The position numbers and the translations under genes are program-made. The notes beneath the pieces were generated by a model. The model was given only the letters and a program-made list of their open reading frames with translations, was not told where the DNA came from and did no database searches. A stretch of 64,000 bases of DNA from Octopus vulgaris (lineage: Eukaryota), in contig OX597833.1 in the NCBI GenBank assembly GCA_951406725.2, forward strand, positions 52,452,001 through 52,516,000. Reading direction: 5' to 3'. Below, one piece after another: positions 2,752 to 61,320 of the stretch; positions within the stretch are counted from its first letter, which is position 1, and every line of letters begins with the position of its first letter.

Positions 2752-3228
2752 GCGGTGAGCTGGCACAAACATTAGCACGCCGGGTGAAATGCTTAGCAGT
2801 ATTTCGTCTGTCTTTACGTTCCGAGTTCAAATTCCGCCAAAGTCGACTTTGCCTTTCATCGTTTCGGGGTCGATAAATTAAGTACCGGCTACGCACTGGG
2901 ATCGATATAATCGACTTAATCCGTTTGTCTGTCCTTGTTTGCCCTCTCTGTGTTTAGCCCCTTGTGGTTAGTAAAGAAATAGGTATTTCGTCTGCCGCTA
3001 CGTTCTGAGTTCAAATTCTGCCGAGGTCGACTTTACCTTTCATCCTTTCGGGGTCGATAAATTAAGTACCGATTACGCACTGGGGTCGATATAATCGACT
3101 TAATCCGTTTGTCTGTCCTTGTTTGCCCTCTCTGTGTTTAGCCCCTTGTGGTTAGTAAAGAAATAGGTATTTCGTCTGCAGCTACGTTCTGAGTTCAAAT
3201 TCCACCAAGGTCGACTTTGCCTTTCATC
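2752..3228 (+). mobile_element. Family A SINE multimer (head + ~2.4 body units)
   Basis: One A-box head, then body repeated with junction aaagaaatag|gtatttcgtc. Confidence 0.9.
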
Positions 3229-4632: not shown

Positions 4633-5231
4633 GGCGGCGAGCTGGCAGAAACGTTAGCACCCCGGGCGAAATGCTTAGCAGTATTTCGTCTGCCGCTACG
4701 TTCTGAGTTCAAATTCCGCCGAGGTCGACTTTGCCTTTCATCCTTTCGGGGTCGATAAATTAAGTACCAGTTACGCACTGGGGTCGATATAATCGACTTA
4801 ATCCGTTTGTCTGTCCTTGTTTGTCCCCTCTGCGTTTAGCCTCTTGTGGGTAGTAAAGAAATAGGTATTTCGTCCGTCGCTACGTTCTGAGTTCAAATTC
4901 CGCCGAGGACGACTTTGCCTTTCATCCTTTCGGGGTCGATTAAATAAGTACCAGTAACGCACTGGAAACGATATAATCGACTTAATCCGTTTGTCTGTCC
5001 TTGTTTGTCCCCTCTGTGTTTAGCCCCTTGTGGGTAGTAAAGAAATAGGTATTTCGCCCGTCGCTACGTTCTGAGCTCAAATTCCGCCGAGGACGACTTT
5101 GCCTTTCATCCTTTCGGAATCGATTAAATAAGTACCAGTCAAGCACTGGGGTCGTTGTAATCGACTTAATCCGTTTGTCTGTCCTTGTTTGTCCCCTCTA
5201 TGTTTAGCACCTTGTGGGTAATAAAGAAACA
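4633..5231 (+). mobile_element. Family A SINE trimer (184-bp period) with TSD
   Basis: Units start at 4681, 4865, 5049; TSD gattaggt(g/a)cagct at 4613-4626 and 5232-5245; B box gagttcaaattcc in the first two units. Confidence 0.92.
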
Positions 5232-6324: not shown

Positions 6325-6989
6325 TGCTCTTTCCAAAACTTGGATTATAACACCCTCAAGAAATTCAGACCTCAACTTCTCTGGTTTCTCTATTGATATT
6401 CTCCTTCAGTTGCTCCAGGGTCTCCGGTTTATTGACATAAACCGTCTCATTCAGGTATCCGCACCAGAAAAAAATCCAGTTTAGTCAAGTCTGGGGTACG
6501 TGAAGGACAATCAAGATGGAGCAACTGCTCATACCGCCAGAGAAACATGCAGTTGCTACGGTAGTGCTTTAGAGAGAGATTCATCTACCGCTATGGGAAT
6601 ATCAACTGGCCTTCACGTTCCCCAGAATTGACTAGCCCGGATTTTCTCTTGTGGTGGATACCTGAAAGAGCGGATTTACAATAATAAACCGGAGACCCTG
6701 GTGCAGCTGAAGGAGAACATCAATAGAGAAATCAGAGAAGTAGGGTCTGAATTTCTTGAGGGTGTTATGGTGCAAGTTTAGGAAAGAGCATGGCAGTGCG
6801 TAGCCGAAAATGGCTGCCATTCAAGCGATGGCATTTTCATATGTGATGTAGTGGCGTTGCAAATTTTAAACTCATGCATATCAATTTTCATTATGTTCCT
6901 TATATTGTATTAAAATTTCAAGCAGTAATTTAAAACGTTAAGGAAGTTATTAAAAACTGAAACCCTTCAGTTATTTTGCGGACAGCTTG

Positions 6990-6990: not shown

Positions 6991-7042
<52 letters not shown>

Positions 7043-7046
<4 letters not shown>

Positions 7047-7510
7047 CGTATATTTGCCATTTGAATATGGCTAACCCCTAAGGGTGAATGCTACTGTAGT
7101 TTGTAGCCCCAGGAGGACACCTCCTCCAGCTGGCTATAGACACACTTTCTGTGCCCTATCAGTATTTGCAAAGGGAAGCCATCCTTCCCGTCTTCAACTT
7201 ATGATACACACGGACTCGAGTTTCAGGGTATTGACCCGTCATCGGCGTGTGACAATCATAGTTGTCGATGAGAAGTTGGTTCCCTTCGCAAATACATATA
7301 CTTTTTCCAGTATCGATTGACACTGATATTGAAAAAGTGAAATCAAACAATGATAAATCTCAGAGCGAGTTATAAACAGTAGCAGCAACACATCGTGACG
7401 TATATTTGCCAAGGGTGAATGCTACTGTAGTTTATAGCCCCAGGAGGACACCTCCCCCAGCTGGCTATAGACACACTTTCTGTGCCCTCTGCGAAAGAAA
7501 ATTATGTCAC
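7043..7510 (-). mobile_element. Retrozyme-like / Penelope pseudo-LTR element: ~1.3 copies of a 352-bp unit with a hammerhead
   Basis: Direct repeats 7043-7157 and 7395-7488; internal minus-strand HHR; adjacent to (TA)n. Confidence 0.7.
7207..7251 (-). ncRNA. Type I hammerhead ribozyme motif (CCGATGA core variant)
   Basis: Minus strand: cacacg CCGATGA c-gggt-caat-accc-t GAA ACTCGAGT C cgtgtg; 6-bp stem I, palindromic stem III, GUC site. Confidence 0.75.
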
Positions 7511-8019
7511 TGTATGTATGAATAGCTCAACTCCAATGCAAATTAGATATTAAATATTTCATTTTACGTTCCTGCTTCCAGAACGCCATTGCTTTCTCTG
7601 AAACGGTGAGTCGTAATTCTCTTTTTACGAATGCTGAAGCTCATCTCAGAAACTTTTCTGTAAAGTTTGCAGATAATTTCTGTTCTCCACTTAATCATTT
7701 GATCTCTATCTACGACACACCCAGCAAGTAGGTTTACTTATATATATATGTGTGTATGTATGTGTGTGTGTGTGTGTGTGTACTGATGTACATTCATACA
7801 TACCTACACATACCTATATATTTGTAATCTTCATTGATACATATATGCATTCATATATATTTATATATATATATATATATATATAGATATATATATATAT
7901 ATATTCACACATATATTATTTATATATATTTATATATATATTCACACACATATATTATATATTTATATACATGCATATAATATATATAAATATATATACA
8001 TACATATATATACAGACGT

Positions 8020-9010: not shown

Positions 9011-9605
9011 ATATATATATATATATATATAAAGAGAGAGAGAGAGAGAGAGAGAAAGATTCAGAGAAAGGTATACATATTTGTATATATATATTTATAT
9101 GTATATATATATATATGTACATATATATATATCTGTATATATATGTGTGTGTGTGTATGTATGTATAAATATATATATATATGTATACATAAATCTATAA
9201 TTATGTATGCGTATTTAGAATGTTGCTTCTATATAGGAGCTTATGTGTGTATATATATATGTGTATAATATATATATATGTACACATATATATATATGTG
9301 TGTGTGTATGATATATATGTATATATGTATATATATATAAATTTATGTATGTATGGATATGTATGTGAAGTATGCATATGCATAAATATACTTATATATA
9401 CACAGATATATACAGATCTAAATTAATATACGTATATATACTTTTCTATTTTGTGTATATATATGTATATGTATATGTATGCGTGTGTGTATAGTTACAC
9501 ATATGCATGTATTCATATATGTGTATGTATCTGTGTGTGTGTGTGTGTGTGTTATCTGTTATAAAACAGTGAGTAATGTGTGTGTATATATGTGCTTTTG
9601 TATCC

Positions 9606-9651
9606 GTGCTCTGAGGAGTGAAACAGTGAAACGTTTCGTCTATGTCGGCAT
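9606..9651 (+). ncRNA. Possible decayed hammerhead motif
   Basis: gtgct CTGAGGA gtgaaacagt GAA acgt..atgt C ggcat; core intact, stem II weak. Confidence 0.4.
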
Positions 9652-30049: not shown

Positions 30050-30456
30050 CGTACATGTCTCAAAAGATACTTTCAATCAAATCGAAACGACTGCCTGAAT
30101 TTATGATTCCATGACGTTTCAACTGGCGAATTGTCAAGCAAGCCCACGTTAAATCGTTATCTGGTACTGTTACTTGGACTAGATTTTAATTACATTTTTA
30201 CTTGGCTCTGCAGCCAGCACTGAGTTCTTTCTAAGTATAAGTGTATCCACGCGGCAATAGATTACATGTACATATAACACATACGTTCGTGTATATACAC
30301 ACACATATATATATGTGTGTGTGTGTGTGTGTATGTATGTGTATATATATGTATATATACATATGTATTTATATATATACATATATATGTATATATATAT
30401 ATATATTATATATGTATATATTATATATATATATATATATGAACAAATTTACAAGC

Positions 30457-30529
30457 GGCCGCGTGGCCTAATGGATAAGGCGCCTGACTTCGAATCAGAA
30501 GATTGCGAGTTCGAATCTCGTCGTGGTCG
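30457..30529 (+). tRNA. trnR-TCG: tRNA-Arg (anticodon TCG)
   Basis: 73-nt cloverleaf: acceptor GGCCGCG/CGTGGTC, D arm TGGCCTAATGGATAAGGC, anticodon loop CTTCGAA, T arm GCGAG-TTCGAAT-CTCGT; one C:A mismatch at 27:43. Confidence 0.9.
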
Positions 30530-30536
30530 AATATTC

Positions 30537-40137: not shown

Positions 40138-40208
<71 letters not shown>

Positions 40209-40209
<1 letters not shown>

Positions 40210-41303
40210 GAAGCTTCATTCTATCATAAAGGAAAGCAAAAACTTTGCTATTGATCTCGTGCAGGATACCCAAACTGAACAACCCGAGGGAAGTACGGCA
40301 ACTATTGTTGCAAAGAAGGTGAAAATGATGGCAATGAAAAAAGCGCACGAGCAATTGGCTGATAGGTGGGAGGAGAAACCTCTGCACGGCAAATATGTGA
40401 CCCGCAGCAAACAAGCTGATGTTGACCAGAAGCAAACCCATCAGTGGCTACGGAGCTCAGGGCTAAAAGCAGAGAGCGAAGGTTTCATCCTGGCTGCTCA
40501 AGATCAAAGCCTATTAACCCGGAACTACCAGGCCAATGTGATGAAAAATGGAGCAGACCCAAAATGCCGATTCTGCAACGACATGATTGAAACAGTGGAC
40601 CACCTAATCTCTGGGTGTAAAGTCTTAGCACCAGTGGAGTATAAATTAAGACATGACAGAGTTGGCCAATATCTACACTGGCTAATAAGTCGGCATTACA
40701 ATATCAAAACTGCCGACAAGTGGTATAATCACCACCCTGAGGCTGTAACTGAAGGAGAAAATGTAACCATTCTGTGGGACTTTCCAGTACATACAGACCG
40801 AACCATCAAGGCCAATAAACCAGATATTGTTGTGAAAGACCAAAACAATAAAGTTTGCTTATTGATCGACATGAGCATCCCCTGTGATCATAATATCTCA
40901 GCGAAAGAGTTTGACAAGCTCAGAAAATATAAAGACCTACTCATTGAAATTGAGAAAATGTGGCATCTCAAGGCGGTTACAATACCAGTGATCGTAGGAG
41001 CACTAGGAATGATCAAGAAGGGAACCGAAAATTATATGAGAATGATCCCTGGCTTACCATCCCTGCAAGAAGTGCAAAAGATTGTCTTAACTGGTACATC
41101 ACACGTATTGAGAAGAGCATTGTCGATGTGAGAACTGTTGCTGCTCATGTATTTTAATTTAACTTAAAAAAAAAAAAAAAAAAATGAACGAATTATTGAG
41201 TTTGATTTAATGGCCAACCAATGTATACTATGAGTTTCTTTGCCCTAGGAGTCGGGAAGACACTCGGCAAGAAATGGAAGCAAATTTGAAAGAAGAAAAA
41301 AAA
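40209..41303 (+). mobile_element. 5'-truncated Dong/R4-clade non-LTR retrotransposon
   Basis: (AAT)n on both sides; uninterrupted C-terminal ORF followed by a 3' UTR. Confidence 0.9.
40259..41131 (+). CDS. C-terminal part of R4/Dong ORF: CCHC zinc knuckle + restriction-like endonuclease (RT domain missing)
   Basis: CRFC..ETVDHLISGC, RHD, KPDIVV, LLIDMSIP, KLRKYKDL, PVIVGALG motifs in an open 290-aa frame; truncated, so probably not translated. Confidence 0.85.
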   Translation: MQDTQTEQPEGSTATIVAKKVKMMAMKKAHEQLADRWEEKPLHGKYVTRSKQADVDQKQTHQWLRSSGLKAESEGFILAAQDQSLLTRNYQANVMKNGADPKCRFCNDMIETVDHLISGCKVLAPVEYKLRHDRVGQYLHWLISRHYNIKTADKWYNHHPEAVTEGENVTILWDFPVHTDRTIKANKPDIVVKDQNNKVCLLIDMSIPCDHNISAKEFDKLRKYKDLLIEIEKMWHLKAVTIPVIVGALGMIKKGTENYMRMIPGLPSLQEVQKIVLTGTSHVLRRALSM

Positions 41304-44466: not shown

Positions 44467-44880
44467 TTTTCTTTACTACCCACAAGGGGCTAAACATGGA
44501 GGGGACGAACAAGGACAGATAAACGGATTAAGTCGATTACATCGACCCCAGTGCGAAACTGGTACTTTATTTATCGACCCCGAAAGGATGAAAGGCAAAG
44601 TCGACCTCGGCGAAATTTGAACACAGAACGTAACGACAGACGAAATACCTATTTCTTTACTACCCACAAGGGGCTAAACACAGAGAGGGCAAACAAGGAC
44701 AGACAAACGGATTAAGTCGATTACATCGACCCCAGTGCGAAACTGGTACTTTATTTATCGACTCCGAAAGAATGAAAGGCAAAGTCGACCTCGGCGGAAT
44801 TTGAACTCAGAACGTAACGGCAGACGAAATACCGATAATCATTTCGCCCGGCGCGCTAACGTTTCTGCCAGCTCGCCGCC
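44467..44880 (-). mobile_element. Family A SINE dimer
   Basis: Two ~184-bp bodies, one head, same junction as the other multimers. Confidence 0.9.
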
Positions 44881-52899: not shown

Positions 52900-55074
52900 T
52901 AATATGCAGATGAATTGAATCCGCACTAGCAAATACGGATGACATCAACACATACATAGAAACACATGCACGCACATAAACTTTCTCCCTCTCTCTTTCC
53001 CTTTCTTTCTCTATCTCTTTCTTTCTCGAAGAAAAACACCTACACATACATAAGTACATATTTGCCTAAATGAAGATCAAGGACGTGTCCTCTGATTTTC
53101 CCTAGGAATCATAGGACACTTGCGTATACAGTCGCAAAAATACACACACATTCTCATGTACACCCTGGTGCACACTGACAGCTAGAAGTTGTTTGGGATA
53201 AATTCGACAGTTTGCCTTAAAAGGAAAAGGGAACACAATATGCAAAGTAACTTGTTCTAAAATTCCCATTGGAGTTACCAGTAGTAACTCTAATGAAAAG
53301 TAATTCTTGTTACTCCTCGACGTGATTGTTTCGTACAAAAAACTGTTAATACTCTTTTTAACCCCCAAAAGACAACCTCCTCCAGCTGGTTAACGACACA
53401 CTATTTGCGTCCGTTATATTGCAAACAAGCGAACGAACAAATCCCATCCAGCGGTGACTGGTCAGTAGACCAGCTAGTTTCAGGGTCTTGCTCTTCCTCA
53501 GTACTGATACACCTGTCTGCGAGACAGTGCAGTCGTTCGTTCCGGTTCGCAATATATAAATAAATAAGCGATATTCAACCGCTGATCTTGCAACAAGCAA
53601 AGCAGCAAGTTCTAAAATTTCTATATCAACCACATGGTTCCGAGCTTTGGGTAACTGTCTTCTACTATAGCCTCGGGCCGACCAAAGCCTTGTGAGTGGA
53701 TTTGGTAGACGGAAACTAAAAGAAGCTTATCGTATATATGCATATATATATATGTATGTGTATGTGTGTGTATATGTTTGTGTCTGTGTCTGTCCCCCCA
53801 ACATCGCTTGACAACCGATGCTGGTGTGTTTACGTCCCCGTAACTTAGCGGTTCGGCAAAACAGTCCGATAGAATAAGTACTAGGCTTACAAAGAATAGG
53901 TCCTGAGTCATTCAAAGAATAAGTCCTGAGTTCAAATGCCTCCGGGGTCGACGATGGCTCTCATCATTTCAGGTTCGATAAAATAAGTACCACTTGATCA
54001 CTGAAGGTCGATGTAATCGACTTACTCCTTTCCCCGAAATTGCCGGTCATGTACGAAAATGTGACTAATATAGAAAGGCAGCGATTTGGCAGAATTATTA
54101 GCACGCTACACAAAATACTCAAACGAATTTCTTCCGGTTTTAGATCCTGAGTTCAAATGCCACTGAGGACAACTTTCATCGTTCATTTTCTCAGGGCCGA
54201 TTAAAATAGTGATTTCAAATTCTGGTGCAAGGCCAGAAAGTTCATTGGGTGGATTACATCGACCCCAGTGCTTAACTGGAACTTATTTTATCGTCCCCGA
54301 AAGGATGAAAGCAAAGTCAATATCGGCGGAATTTGAACTCAGAACCTAAGGAGGGATGAAACGCCGCTAAGCGCTTTGTCTGGCGCGCTAACGATTCTAC
54401 CAGCACGCCGCCTTAGTGCAGATTAAAATAATCTTTTCTGCTATAGGCACAAGGTTGAAATTTTGAAGGAGGGAGGCACCCGATTAGATCAACCCAAGTA
54501 CGCAACTGGTACTTAATTTATCGACCCCGAAAGAATGAAAGGCAAAGTTGACCTCGGTGGGGAAAGATTAAAATAATATCAGTTTGATAGTTGAGTCTAT
54601 GTAACCGACTTACCTTTCTCCTCAAAATTACTGGCCTTGTGCCAATAATTAGAAAAAATTGTACATACCAAAATTACAGGCATAATCATATAACTAACCG
54701 AGAAAAAGCGGGTAATAAGAATGCCCTAAATTAAGACATGATGTAATTTTCTTTGTTAAAAATATAATTTGAGTCAATTTAATGTCGTGAACCCAACAAA
54801 ACAAAATTAAATGAATAAATAAAGAAGAGGTAATTATGCGGCGAGGAAACAGTATTTTATAAATGACTAATGTTATTTTCATTTTGTAGGGTAAGTGTAG
54901 TCATGGATATGTGGTTAAGAATCTTACTTTGCAGTCACGAGATTTCAGGTTCAATCCTACTCTTGGGCAAGTGTCTTCTACTCTAGCCTCGGGCCGAGCA
55001 AAGCCTTGTGAGTGGATTTGGTAGACGGAAACTGAAAGAAGCCCGTCCTATAGATGTATGTCTATCTATATATG

Positions 55075-57380: not shown

Positions 57381-58130
57381 TGACATATATACATATATTC
57401 CGTCTCCTTGTTGCTTGCTCACTGCCTAAGGCATCATTGATTTTTCACCTGTAACCTCATAGATGGCTGACAGTTCTGTTGCAGGTGTGCAAGGTTTGTA
57501 GCATAGATAACAAACAAAAGATGTTACTTACTGTGCACTCTCAGCCAGGTACCTCAACCAGGTACCTCAACACAACATGACGTCACTCTTCCATTGCTGT
57601 AGGACTTTCAGCAGATGGGATGACAGACACGCACGCGCACACACGCACACACACACACAAACATATATTTATGTACACATATGTATATATACGTATATTC
57701 ATATATACAGGTGTATATATATATATTCTTTTACTCTTTTACTTGTTTCAGTCATTTGAGTGCGGCCATACTGGAGCACTGCCGAACGAATCGACCCCAG
57801 GACCTATTCTTTGTAAGCCTAGTATATGTATATATTTGAGCACCCCTGTTTGTTTCCACCCCCACTCCAGACCGTCACCTGACAACCGATGCTGGTGTGT
57901 TTTTGTCCCCGTAACTTAGCGTCTAGGCAAAAGAGACCGATAGAATATGTACTCGGCTTGCAAAACAATATGTCTTGGGTCGATTTGCTCGACTAAATGC
58001 GGTGCTCCAGCATGCCCACAGTCAAATGACTGAAACAAGTAAAAGAATATATATATATACCGGAGTAAACACATAAATGTGAAACAAGGTTGAAAAAAGA
58101 GTACTCAAATACCAGTGGTAGAGTAATATG

Positions 58131-58288
58131 CTTTATTTAAAGCAGCAGAAAATTCAACAAAATCTGTTACTCTGAGTTTCTCGTTGCCGTTCATCAGACA
58201 GTTTTTGCTAGAAAAAACTGTCTGATGAACGGCAACGAGAAACTCAGAGTAACAGATTTTGTTGAATTTTCTGCTGCTTTAAATAAAG
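58131..58288. repeat. Perfect 76-bp inverted repeat with 6-nt loop, hammerhead motif in each arm
   Basis: 58131-58206 is the exact reverse complement of 58213-58288; ctgt CTGATGA a-cg-gcaa-cg-a GAA ACTC-A-GAGT A acag. Confidence 0.9.
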
Positions 58289-58661
58289 TATATATATATA
58301 TTTGTATCACCTTGTATTGGCTTTTGGAATTAATTCGAAGGGATATAACATGCAGTGAGAGAGATTTTCTCATTCATTGGAGCCAAGATGTCTGTGATCT
58401 TGTATGCTAATGATGATGACGATGATGATGATTATGATGATGATGGTGATGTTGATGATGATGATGATAAGTATGACGATGGTGGTGACGATGATAAGGA
58501 TGATGCTGCTTGTGCTGGTGCTGGTGTTGGTATGGGGGTTAGATTTTGGTGGCGGCGGCGGCGGTGCTCGTGACGGAGGTGGTTTACAACGTTGGCAGAT
58601 ATATCAGTCGAATTAGTTGTTATTAACAGTAGATAGTCGCAACGGAATTAGAAGATTCGAC

Positions 58662-59702: not shown

Positions 59703-60444
59703 AGCATCTTGTAAAGCGTTCACTGATATGAATCAAATCAAAGATCGTGTTTCTGGTTTATGATAACTCACGCAGCGTGGCATACGCTCCTACTACTTCA
59801 ATAGGCGTCACTGGAAAGCGGGTATTACTTGATAACAAGTACCGTACTTTCGCTAATTGTTTCAGGTGCCTGTGTAGTCACGAGGAGACATAAATACATT
59901 TTCGGTCCTCTCTTTCTTGACTCTGCGGAATATCTAGGATGCGGCATCTAGCTAGAAAGGAGAAAGGGTCGCACTAGCAATCGTTCGATACTCAGTTCAG
60001 CTGATACATGAAATGGTGTGCTTCGCTCAATGAAGTCAACGACTCGCCTAATTCAGGGTACCGAACCTAAGAAAGCATCTTGTAAAGCATTCACTGATAT
60101 GAATCAAATCAAAGATCGTGTTTCTGGTTTATGATAACTCACGCAGCGAGACATACGCTCCTACTACTTCAATAGGCGTTACTGGAAAGCGGGTATTACT
60201 TAATAACAAGTACCGTGCTTTCGCTAATTGTTTCAGGTGCCTGTGTAGTCACGAGCAGACATAAGCACTCTTTCGGTCATCTCATTCTTGACTCTGAGGA
60301 ATATCTAGGGTGCGGCATCTAGCCAGAAAGGAGAAAGGGTCGCACTAGCAATCGTTCGATACTCAGTTCAGCTGATACATGAAATGGTGTGCTTCGCTCA
60401 ATGAAGTCAACGACTCGCCTAATTCAGGGTACCGAACCTAAGAA
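59703..60444. repeat. Tandem duplication, 371-bp period, two copies
   Basis: 59703-60073 and 60074-60444 are near-identical with scattered substitutions. Confidence 0.92.
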
Positions 60445-60904: not shown

Positions 60905-61320
60905 GGCGGTGAGTTAGCAGAAGCGTTAGCATGTCGGGCGAAATGCTTAGCGGTATCACGTCTGCCGTTATGTCCTGAGTTCAAATTCCGCCAAGGTCGA
61001 CTTTGCCTTTCATCCTTTCGGGGTCGTTAAATTATGTACCAGTTACGCACTGGGGTCGATATAATCGACTTAATCCGTTTGTCTGTCCTTGTTTGTCCTC
61101 TCTGTGTTTATTCCCCTGTGGATAGTAAGGAAATAGGTATTTCATCTGCCGTTATGTTCTGAGTTCAAATTCCGCCGTGGTCGACTTTGCCTTTCATCCT
61201 TTCGGGGTCGATAAATTAAGTACCAGTTAAACACTGGGGTCAATGTAATTGACTTAATCTGTTTGTCTGTCCTTGTTTGTCCCCTCTATGTTTAGACCCT
61301 TGTGAGCAATAAAGAAATAA
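60905..61320 (+). mobile_element. Family A SINE dimer
   Basis: One head and two bodies; junction gaaatag|gtatttc. Confidence 0.9.

What the first reader, a model, noticed from the sequence alone, without database searches (positions are those of the whole stretch)
7043..7510. Candidate retrozyme: 352-bp repeat unit carrying one hammerhead
Seen: the first ~115 bp recur 352 bp later (second copy with a ~21-bp deletion). Between them is a minus-strand HHR with 6-bp stem I, palindromic ACTCGAGT stem III and a GUC site. There is no credible ORF and the element abuts (TA)n. Established: metazoan non-LTR retrozymes are tandem repeats of a few hundred nt with one type I HHR per unit and yield circular RNAs. 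Inference: this partial-dimer layout is the footprint expected from reverse transcription of a ~350-nt circRNA, or of a Penelope pseudo-LTR tandem.
Basis: partly seen in the sequence, partly recalled or inferred. Interest (0 to 1): 0.8.

Follow-up and report, generated by a model that had tools for sequence, protein, structure and literature searches.

The report
Hammerhead retrozyme copy at TA microsatellite
A 446-base non-coding insert, one and a third copies of a 352-base unit that carries a hammerhead (self-cutting RNA) motif, belongs to a highly repeated family and is likely a retrozyme pasted in by the enzymes of Penelope-like retrotransposons; the kind is already known from other animals, and whether this family makes RNA circles is untested.

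Summary
Observation confirmed; the element ends at 7488, not 7510. It spans 7043-7488: a 352-nt unit plus 94 nt of a second unit that lacks 21 nt, beside (TA)26. The minus strand holds a type I hammerhead motif of canonical animal build (cut site 7213/7212) with two defects, C4 and a C10.1-U11.1 mismatch. Public-run contigs show a heterogeneous family at roughly 2,000-50,000 times the depth of the single-copy flank. Other copies carry the undeleted head-to-tail junction. About 60% of DNA depth has canonical U4, one subfamily restores G10.1-C11.1, and stem II covaries. One run appears to lack the insert here. Both repeats share a base that at most 0.3% of family depth carries, so they come from one unit. 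Best reading: a dispersed copy of a non-LTR retrozyme family, inserted by Penelope-type target-primed reverse transcription that started inside the RNA and read across the ribozyme site. The layout cannot tell a circular template (about 0.5) from an uncut tandem transcript (about 0.33). With one ribozyme, this locus cannot release a circle. No two-ribozyme array, cleavage or circle was shown, and Rfam gave no hammerhead hit. New member of a known kind.

The parts
6991..7042 (.). (TA)26 microsatellite abutting the 3' end of the minus-strand element; likely target site
   Evidence: no target-site duplication longer than 4 nt between the 40-nt flanks
7043..7488 (-). Whole insertion, 446 bp, 1.33 template units; 3' end at 7043, truncated 5' end at 7488
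7043..7394 (-). 352-nt repeat unit, 43% G+C, no ORF, strongly self-paired in prediction
   Evidence: z -7.3 linear, -8.0 circular; joint 7394->7043 in runs X3 and X13
7043..7157 (-). Repeat copy 1 (115 nt); includes the stretch most similar to the relative at 53.3 kb
7059..7079 (-). 21 nt present in copy 1 and missing from copy 2; other family copies keep it at this junction
   Evidence: loose ends at 7411 in 24, 33 and 5 contigs of X1, X3, X11
7162..7295 (-). Predicted long rod-like stem with the hammerhead at its tip
7207..7251 (-). Type I hammerhead motif; predicted cut between 7213 (C17) and 7212; U4C and C10.1-U11.1 in this copy
   Evidence: family variants
7346..7348 (-). Position of a second family 3' end, about 48 nt beyond this copy's end in unit coordinates; seen in other copies only
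   Evidence: loose ends: 22 contigs of X3 at 7348 (median 190 unlike letters, agreement 0.53) and 1 contig of X11 at 7346 running into a TA tract
7395..7488 (-). Repeat copy 2 (94 nt, 21-nt deletion, 2 substitutions against copy 1)
7489..7735 (.). Single-copy host flank, not part of the family
   Evidence: flat depth 15.7 (X1) and 50.3 (X3), 0 in X11 and X13; no second copy in the window
53236..53624 (-). Diverged relative of about 1.1 units: 355-nt period and its own type I hammerhead motif (U4, C17 at 53468)
   Evidence: score 142 against a maximum of 94.5 in 200 shuffles; 34-nt repeat, 0 of 500 shuffles

Best explanation
The insert is one dispersed 1.33-unit copy of a highly repeated, non-coding 352-nt family with a type I hammerhead motif, likely a non-LTR retrozyme pasted in by a Penelope-like reverse transcriptase-endonuclease that likely read a circular RNA more than once round. 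Steps: (1) Inferred: source arrays with two or more intact ribozymes are transcribed on the minus strand, cut at 7213/7212 (probably as ribozyme dimers through the palindromic stem III) and ligated into 352-nt circles. (2) Inferred from the PAc enzyme: the Penelope protein nicks AT-rich DNA, here the end of a (TA)n tract, and starts reverse transcription inside the RNA at one of two sites, 7043 or about 7347, both in predicted hairpin loops. (3) Shown by the sequence: the copy runs 170 nt to the cut site, reads across it, completes the unit and goes 115 template nt into a second pass before stopping at 7488, with 21 nt lost in the second pass. (4) Shown: it has one ribozyme, with U4C and an open 10.1-11.1 pair, so it cannot release a unit-length RNA; it is likely a dead end. 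Identity as a retrozyme-type Penelope passenger is about 0.83; the confidence given is for the whole chain including the circle.
For: Family: 4047 and 5470 contigs laid in two DNA-guessed runs, with summed depth 2,359-49,730 times (X1) and 1,871-34,344 times (X3) that of the flank over the 15 bins 7043-7402 (the tool says this is no copy number, so order of magnitude only). Head-to-tail continuity is family-wide: joint 7394->7043 in 2 contigs of X3 and 1 of X13, and the undeleted continuation at 7411 in 24, 33 and 5 contigs. Ribozyme under constraint: none of the 40 variant rows shown (of 59) hits the 11 invariant core positions or stem I. U4 makes up 59, 61, 53 and 36% of depth in the four runs. 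7238/7225 change together to G10.1-C11.1 and 7237/7226 to A-U at matching frequencies. Depth arithmetic places U4, G10.1-C11.1 and A10.2-U11.2 on one contig, X13 record 23. Of 23 variant rows at predicted pairs, 16 keep pairing alone or with a partner change and 7 break it. Build matches the canonical metazoan type (helix I 6 bp, helix II 4 bp, helix III 1-2 bp with a palindromic loop) rather than the Penelope minimal type (PMC4209133). Fold: z -7.3 and -8.0, against -2.2 to +1.7 for 12 control windows. Insertion: X3 record 32 matches the flank from exactly 7489 and has 22 letters that do not continue into the element. Ends: depth is highest on the 3' side and falls towards the 5' side; single contigs end at 7182, 7292 and 7461; recurrent ends lie at 7044 (3 contigs, X13) and 7346-7348. 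Both 3' ends fall in predicted hairpin loops, like the two internal start sites and tail of Penelope elements (PMC11167929; PMC8557442). One-unit origin: both repeats have A at 7087/7418, where 99.7% of DNA depth has G, and they differ at only 2 of 94 sites while most laid contigs are under 95% alike.
Against: No circle, cleavage or array with two ribozymes was seen; contigs cannot show them and no genome is held. This copy's ribozyme has U4C, which lowers activity in vitro (PMC3088659), plus an open 10.1-11.1 pair. About 40% of DNA depth keeps C4 and 55-66% has C10.1-A11.1, so much of the family may cut poorly, which favours uncut templates. In the predicted circle the hammerhead fold lies 5.7 kcal/mol above the minimum; stem II probability is 0.07-0.09 and stem III 0. 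PAc inserts unprocessed RNA and needs no cleavage in vitro. 8 of 9 tested Xenopus retrozyme dimers did not cleave. Rfam finds no hammerhead. The depth slope is confounded by subfamily divergence at the 85% cut-off: the loose ends at 7124, 7189 and 7193 are sequence variants, not termini. The deepest hammerhead-covering contig in X13 keeps C4 and runs on into 145 unlike letters, as a copy embedded in another sequence would. The 22 letters of the apparent empty site were not printed. One of the four reciprocal pair changes (7179/7279) has unmatched frequencies in X3 (0.47 and 0.02). No autonomous partner was identified.
Confidence: 0.5

Rival explanations
1. Same family and same Penelope enzyme, but the template is an uncut linear transcript of a tandem source array (or a jump back onto the same RNA). 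The hammerhead is a slow or vestigial passenger and circles, if made, are a side product.
For: PAc starts internally on unprocessed RNA and hammerhead mutants insert as well as wild type (PMC11167929). C4 and an open 10.1-11.1 pair are common in the family yet amplified. Depth falls gradually across 7187-7282 with no step at the cut site. The layout is identical to that from a circle.
Against: The core and stem I show no listed variants and stem II covaries, which implies selection on the ribozyme. The two repeats share a rare base, which needs a young or homogenised source array. Mussel, coral and axolotl retrozymes of the same size accumulate as circles (PMC7229834).
Confidence: 0.33
2. The sequence is the pseudo-LTR or end region of a coding Penelope element; the deep 7043-7200 part comes from truncated autonomous copies and the 352-nt period is a local deletion derivative.
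For: Depth is about 20-fold higher in 7067-7186 than in 7259-7282. (TA)n targets, tails and partial tandems are Penelope traits. Penelope-type minimal hammerheads occur in the window (58126-58293).
Against: The 352-nt junction recurs in other copies, and a diverged relative has its own 355-nt period. The hammerhead is of canonical, not minimal, build. The 22 loose ends at 7348 agree at only 0.53 and are AT-rich, not one shared ORF. No ORF lies in or beside the element.
Confidence: 0.08
3. A DNA-level repeat (non-autonomous Helitron/Helentron-like rolling-circle element or dispersed satellite monomer) whose hammerhead motif is an inherited relic.
For: A partial tandem, a hairpin 13 nt from the 3' end (7057-7072) and a microsatellite neighbour are also seen in such elements (recalled, no call).
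Against: The unit junction has no TC...CTRR termini (sequence; Helitron ends recalled) and no terminal inverted repeats were reported. There are two different 3' ends. Unpartnered transitions at predicted pairs favour G-U on the minus strand by 8 to 1, or 6 to 1 without the window's own wobble pairs (hand count; weak).
Confidence: 0.05

Closest known systems
Metazoan non-LTR retrozymes (Cervera and de la Pena 2020, PMC7229834; passages and sections 14 and 17 read), nearest the Mytilus galloprovincialis family of 350-390 bp
   Same: Unit size 352 nt, G+C 43%, one canonical-build type I hammerhead motif per unit, no ORF, no LTR, strong predicted self-pairing, high copy number, head-to-tail junctions.
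   Different: Seen here as a dispersed 1.33-mer with one ribozyme; arrays, cleavage and circles not shown; U4C and an open 10.1-11.1 pair in this copy and in a large share of the family; no target-site duplication.
Retrozymes as non-autonomous Penelope derivatives (Li, Clavereau and Pollet, bioRxiv 10.64898/2026.07.22.740005; parts 1-3 of 5 read, supplements not available)
   Same: Dispersed monomer-class copies are described there; Penelope-type hammerhead repeats co-occur in this window.
   Different: That study covers 31 vertebrates, 3 insects and 1 coral and rests on co-occurrence and pLTR homology. By its definition (two consecutive complete ribozymes) this locus is not an active retrozyme. 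No homology to a coding Penelope element could be tested here.
Penelope-like elements, PAc/Poseidon of Anolis (PMC11167929, parts 1-2 of 4 read; PMC8557442, passages)
   Same: AT-rich or (TA)n target, partial tandem, no target-site duplication, 3' end downstream of the ribozyme cut site, two alternative ends in predicted stem-loops.
   Different: No RT or endonuclease ORF. The ends lie 170 and about 218 nt after the cut site and 48 nt apart, against a 30-40 nt tail. The ribozyme is canonical rather than minimal.
Axolotl HHR_Amex2 retrozyme Rtz_353 (PMC7229834, passages)
   Same: About 350-nt unit, 2-bp helix III with a tetraloop, a mismatch at the base of helix II; it cuts weakly as a monomer and well as a dimer.
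   Different: U-U there, C-U here (C-A in the family majority), and U4C in addition.

Membership tests
Metazoan non-LTR retrozyme | Canonical type I hammerhead motif in the unit | tested here: met
   Motif and helix lengths match; the family has U4 in 36-61% of depth and a fully canonical subfamily. This copy deviates at 4 and 10.1-11.1; Rfam gave no hit.
Metazoan non-LTR retrozyme | Repeat unit of 150-450 bp joined head to tail | tested here: met
   352-nt period; joint 7394->7043 in 2 of 4 runs and the undeleted continuation in 3 of 4 among the rows shown.
Metazoan non-LTR retrozyme | Arrays with two or more ribozymes (dimers to multimers) | not testable with these tools
   This locus has one. 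No genome is held and no laid contig spans the stretch.
Metazoan non-LTR retrozyme | G+C below 50%, no ORF, no LTR organisation | tested here: met
   43% G+C. Primer-binding site and polypurine tract were not searched for specifically.
Metazoan non-LTR retrozyme | Highly self-paired unit-length RNA | tested here: met
   Prediction only: -128.2 kcal/mol as a circle, z -8.0, best of 60 shuffles -94.7.
Metazoan non-LTR retrozyme | Self-cleavage in vitro | not testable with these tools
   Needs bench work; U4C is known to lower activity.
Metazoan non-LTR retrozyme | Expressed as circular RNA | not testable with these tools
   Only contigs of runs guessed to be RNA were laid; they cannot show strand, ends or circles.
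Metazoan non-LTR retrozyme | Mobile: dispersed copies, presence/absence between genomes | tested here: inconclusive
   High summed depth, varied flanks and an apparent empty site in X3 whose letters were not printed.
Autonomous Penelope-like element | RT plus GIY-YIG ORF between pseudo-LTRs | tested here: not met
   No ORF of 120 aa or more in or beside the element; the flank is single-copy.
Autonomous Penelope-like element | Minimal hammerhead (helix II 7-8 bp, helix I 4-5 bp) | tested here: not met
   Helix I 6 bp, helix II 3-4 bp, helix III 2 bp against the definition in PMC4209133.
Penelope-mobilised (works like) | AT-rich or (TA)n target, no clear target-site duplication, partial tandem | tested here: met
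Penelope-mobilised (works like) | Two alternative 3' ends (tail) | tested here: inconclusive
   Ends at 7043/7044 (this copy, 3 contigs of X13) and 7346-7348 (22 contigs of X3, 1 of X11); 557 loose-end rows were not shown.
Penelope-mobilised (works like) | Sequence shared with the pLTR of a coding element in the same genome | not testable with these tools
   No genome; collection scans empty.
Helitron/Helentron non-autonomous element | 5' TC and 3' CTRR termini or sub-terminal inverted repeats (features recalled) | tested here: not met
   Ends read; no such inverted pair among those listed (25 longest of 824 shown).

The most novel reading that the evidence does not exclude
The family is a genome-scale record of how retrozymes move. 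Its copies start at two internal hairpin-loop sites about 48 nt apart, the Penelope tail signature on a non-coding ribozyme circle, and more-than-unit copies are literal re-reads of one circle. A large branch with a crippled hammerhead (C4, open 10.1-11.1) amplified alongside a canonical branch, so slow cutting may be favoured because it keeps the template closed during reverse transcription. That would tie retrozyme mobility to Penelope enzymes by mechanism and give a natural fast-versus-slow ribozyme comparison in one genome.
Probability: 0.22. Interest if true: 0.62.

Novelty: new member of a known kind. Interest (0 to 1): 0.32.

Why it matters
As it stands this is another animal retrozyme family, possibly the first noted in a cephalopod. 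The host group is recalled from the look of its 184-bp repeats and was not confirmed; searches listed no paper on octopus or squid retrozymes. Its use is as test material for two open questions: whether the circle or the uncut multimer is the retrotransposition template, and what the hammerhead does for Penelope-type mobility. A family with thousands of dispersed copies, two candidate start sites, more-than-unit copies and both canonical and U4C branches allows both to be tested by counting in one assembly.

Tried and rejected
Rfam: no hammerhead hit for this motif or for the 53-kb relative; the hits seen were TA-driven or chance. No whole genome was available. Two exact motif scans of metagenome contigs and one of viral contigs found 0 loci. 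Run search: no RNA holder listed on record. X11 and X13 are only guessed to be RNA, and the flank had no cover in them; neither is used as evidence on expression. Earlier findings by sequence, by place and by two word sets returned nothing. Host group: a homologue search with the ORF at 40208-41128 named only Penaeus and Clytia proteins at 57-68% identity and a paper search for a window repeat motif found nothing, so the host is unresolved. Target-site duplication: nothing over 4 nt between the 40-nt flanks. Retained-intron idea: a pyrimidine run plus CAG ends exactly at 7489 on the minus strand, but that flank is single-copy and present in X3 without the element, so it is not an intron of the family. 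ATG inside the core: it opens only 27 codons. The 371-bp tandem at 59703-60444 as a second retrozyme: only a loose core-like match without stem I, and fold z +0.87. The bacterial promoter scan was at chance level and is not applicable. Control folds: 13 of 25 windows were dropped for simple repeats. Variant analysis used 34 of the 40 rows shown (those in 7043-7394); 19 further rows were not shown. Lunse et al. 2017 is not held. The supplement of PMC7229834 could not be read and that of PMC13282606 was listed but not read; either may mention cephalopod repeats of this kind.

Full report
Observation. The window is microsatellite-rich DNA of 31-43% G+C with an animal-like repeat content. The host was not identified; its 184-bp repeats look like octopus SINEs to me, which is recall and comes from no call. 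Bases 7040-7157 recur at 7392-7488 with a 21-nt gap (7059-7079), period 352, and two substitutions inside the element. The element runs from 7043, next to (TA)26, to 7488; the stated end of 7510 is 22 bases too far. There is no ORF and no target-site duplication over 4 nt.

The ribozyme motif. On the minus strand: stem I of 6 bp, core CCGAUGA (7245-7239), a C10.1-U11.1 mismatch, a 3-4 bp stem II, GAAA, a 2-bp stem III capped by UCGA, and C17 at 7213. It was the only hit of its quality among 5 descriptor hits in the window, with none in 20 shuffles, and a fixed pattern gave 1 match against 0 of 100 shuffles; both tests were fitted after the fact. Rfam did not find it at any threshold tried. The helix lengths are those given for canonical metazoan type I hammerheads, not the minimal Penelope type (PMC4209133, passages and part 1 of 4). 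The stem III octamer self-pairs at -10.7 kcal/mol, as needed for a dimeric ribozyme. In the predicted monomer circle the active fold costs 5.7 kcal/mol and stem III does not form. U4C is a known natural variant that lowers activity in vitro but supports viroid infectivity (PMC3088659, passages and section 8). The unit folds far better than its shuffles (z -7.3 linear, 0 of 100; -8.0 circular, 0 of 60), while 12 control windows (13 of 25 dropped for simple repeats) range from -2.2 to +1.7.

It is a family. 20 of 24 listed runs hold the stretch or part of it, 9 with half of its words or more, under four organism labels. I laid four runs, chosen as X1 and X3 (DNA by guess) and X11 and X13 (RNA by guess), at 85% likeness on 7043-7735. 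They gave 4047, 5470, 598 and 155 contigs, most under 95% alike. Summed depth over the unit is about 1,900 to 50,000 times that of the flank 7499-7735, which one contig covers in each DNA run. The tool warns that this is no copy number, so I take only the order of magnitude. X1 matches the flank with no differences and may be the source sample. The joint 7394->7043 stands in X3 (2 contigs) and X13 (1), and contigs of three runs continue at 7411 with the 21 bases that copy 2 lacks. Head-to-tail continuity is therefore a property of the family, and the deletion belongs to this copy or a minority. A diverged relative at 53236-53624 has the same predicted rod with a hammerhead motif at its tip and a 355-nt period.

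Selection on the RNA. Of 40 variant rows shown (19 more hidden), none touches the 11 invariant core positions or stem I. U4 accounts for 59, 61, 53 and 36% of depth. Positions 7238 and 7225 change together to G10.1-C11.1 (17-26%), 7237 and 7226 together to A-U (25-36%), and 7311 and 7322 together in a neighbouring hairpin. A fourth pair (7179/7279) has unmatched frequencies in X3. Of 23 rows at predicted pairs, 16 keep pairing and 7 break it. Depth arithmetic shows that X13 record 23 carries U4, G10.1-C11.1 and A10.2-U11.2 together, while record 24, the deepest, keeps C4 and runs into 145 unlike letters. So canonical and defective branches coexist, and 55-66% of depth has C10.1-A11.1. Loose-end consensus lines at 7193 show a UCGG loop variant that by inspection still self-pairs through G-U.

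Insertion anatomy. X3 record 32 matches the flank from exactly 7489 and has 22 further letters that do not enter the element, whereas X1 record 8 runs 30 bases into it. This fits an empty site in X3, perhaps the TA tract, but the letters were not printed. The flank differs by 5 of 247 bases in X3, similar to the 2 of 94 between the repeats. Depth is highest in 7067-7186, falls about 20-fold to 7259-7282 and rises again over 7331-7402. Loose ends occur at 7044 (3 contigs, X13), at 7346-7348 (22 contigs of X3 with varied AT-rich flanks; 1 of X11 into a TA run), and singly at 7182, 7292 and 7461. This suggests two 3' ends about 48 nt apart and scattered 5' ends. The caution is real: divergence at the 85% cut-off also lowers depth, several loose ends are only subfamily variants, and 557 rows were hidden. 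Both candidate 3' ends lie in loops of weak predicted hairpins (pair probabilities about 0.45-0.57). The Penelope enzyme PAc nicks AT-rich DNA and starts inside the RNA at two stem-loop sites that define the genomic tail (PMC11167929, parts 1-2 of 4), and (TA)n targeting, partial tandems and 30-40 bp tails are general Penelope traits (PMC8557442, passages).

Mechanism. Shown: a copy with its 3' end 170 nt past the cut site that reads across that site and on for a third of a unit, and whose two repeats share A7087/A7418 where 99.7% of DNA depth has G. The repeats therefore descend from one unit, not from two random family members. Inferred: target-primed reverse transcription by a Penelope protein. 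A linear monomer cut at both ends is excluded unless the enzyme jumped. A circle read 1.33 times explains the shared base most simply and matches the published model and the circles seen in mussel, coral and axolotl (PMC7229834, passages and sections 14 and 17; PMC7761336, passages). An uncut transcript of a young tandem array explains it almost as well and is favoured by the weak ribozyme and by PAc's use of unprocessed RNA. I put the circle at 0.5, the uncut multimer or jump at 0.33, a coding-element end at 0.08 and a DNA-level repeat at 0.05. With one ribozyme, this locus cannot release a unit-length RNA.

Comparison and novelty. It meets the sequence-level features of metazoan non-LTR retrozymes; arrays, cleavage and circles could not be tested, and it fails membership of autonomous Penelope elements. 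Five searches listed no paper on cephalopod retrozymes, and a recent Octopus vulgaris repeat annotation lists 31 recently active Penelope-like families and has no occurrence of 'ribozyme' in its main text (PMC13282606, passages). The library lacks most subscription papers, and supplements that I could not read may cover it. PMC6765202 was read as passages only. Verdict: real, a new member of a known kind, interest 0.32. The bolder reading, that the family records Penelope-type internal starts on a circle and that slow ribozymes are favoured, stays open at about 0.22.

Noticed in passing
window 53236-53624: Diverged relative of the element, about 1.1 units with a 355-nt period and a U4 hammerhead motif (C17 at 53468, minus strand). 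Its left end aligns roughly with the 7346 region of the main unit; fold z -2.3.
   Followed up: partly
window 58126-58293: Perfect 84-bp inverted pair with no spacer; each arm holds a small hammerhead-like core with a 4-bp stem I, as in inverted Penelope ends.
   Followed up: partly
window 9605-9651: Plus-strand hammerhead-like core with a 5-bp stem I and GUC site, isolated among TA/TG repeats; probably a Penelope remnant.
   Followed up: partly
window 59703-60444: Exact two-copy tandem of a 371-bp unit (95% alike), no convincing hammerhead and no folding signal on the minus strand (z +0.87); unexplained.
   Followed up: partly
window 40208-41128: 307-aa 3' fragment of a non-LTR retrotransposon (zf-RVT, E 0.00046) starting at an (AAT)n tract; R4/Dong-like by recall; 322 relatives at E<=1e-40.
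   Followed up: partly
window 30456-30530: A single intact tRNA-Arg(UCG) gene between TA-rich repeats.
   Followed up: no
window 7489-7501, minus strand: A pyrimidine run plus CAG in the single-copy flank ends exactly at the element's 5' junction; it could act as a splice acceptor into the element, or be chance.
   Followed up: partly
window 2799-3228, 4681-5229, 44468-44833, 60961-61294: 184-bp SINE-like repeat in short tandem runs of 1.8-3 units; a 20-nt core occurs 8 times in the window. The more-than-unit layout resembles that of the finding.
   Followed up: no
window 6375-6741: 135-bp inverted arms (82% complementary) around a 97-bp spacer just left of the element; MITE-like.
   Followed up: no
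runs X11 and X13, positions 7311-7322: One subfamily is 16-25% of depth in the DNA-guessed runs but 47-48% and 76-78% in the RNA-guessed runs; in X13 it is the contig with the canonical core. A possible hint of uneven expression, on few contigs.
   Followed up: partly
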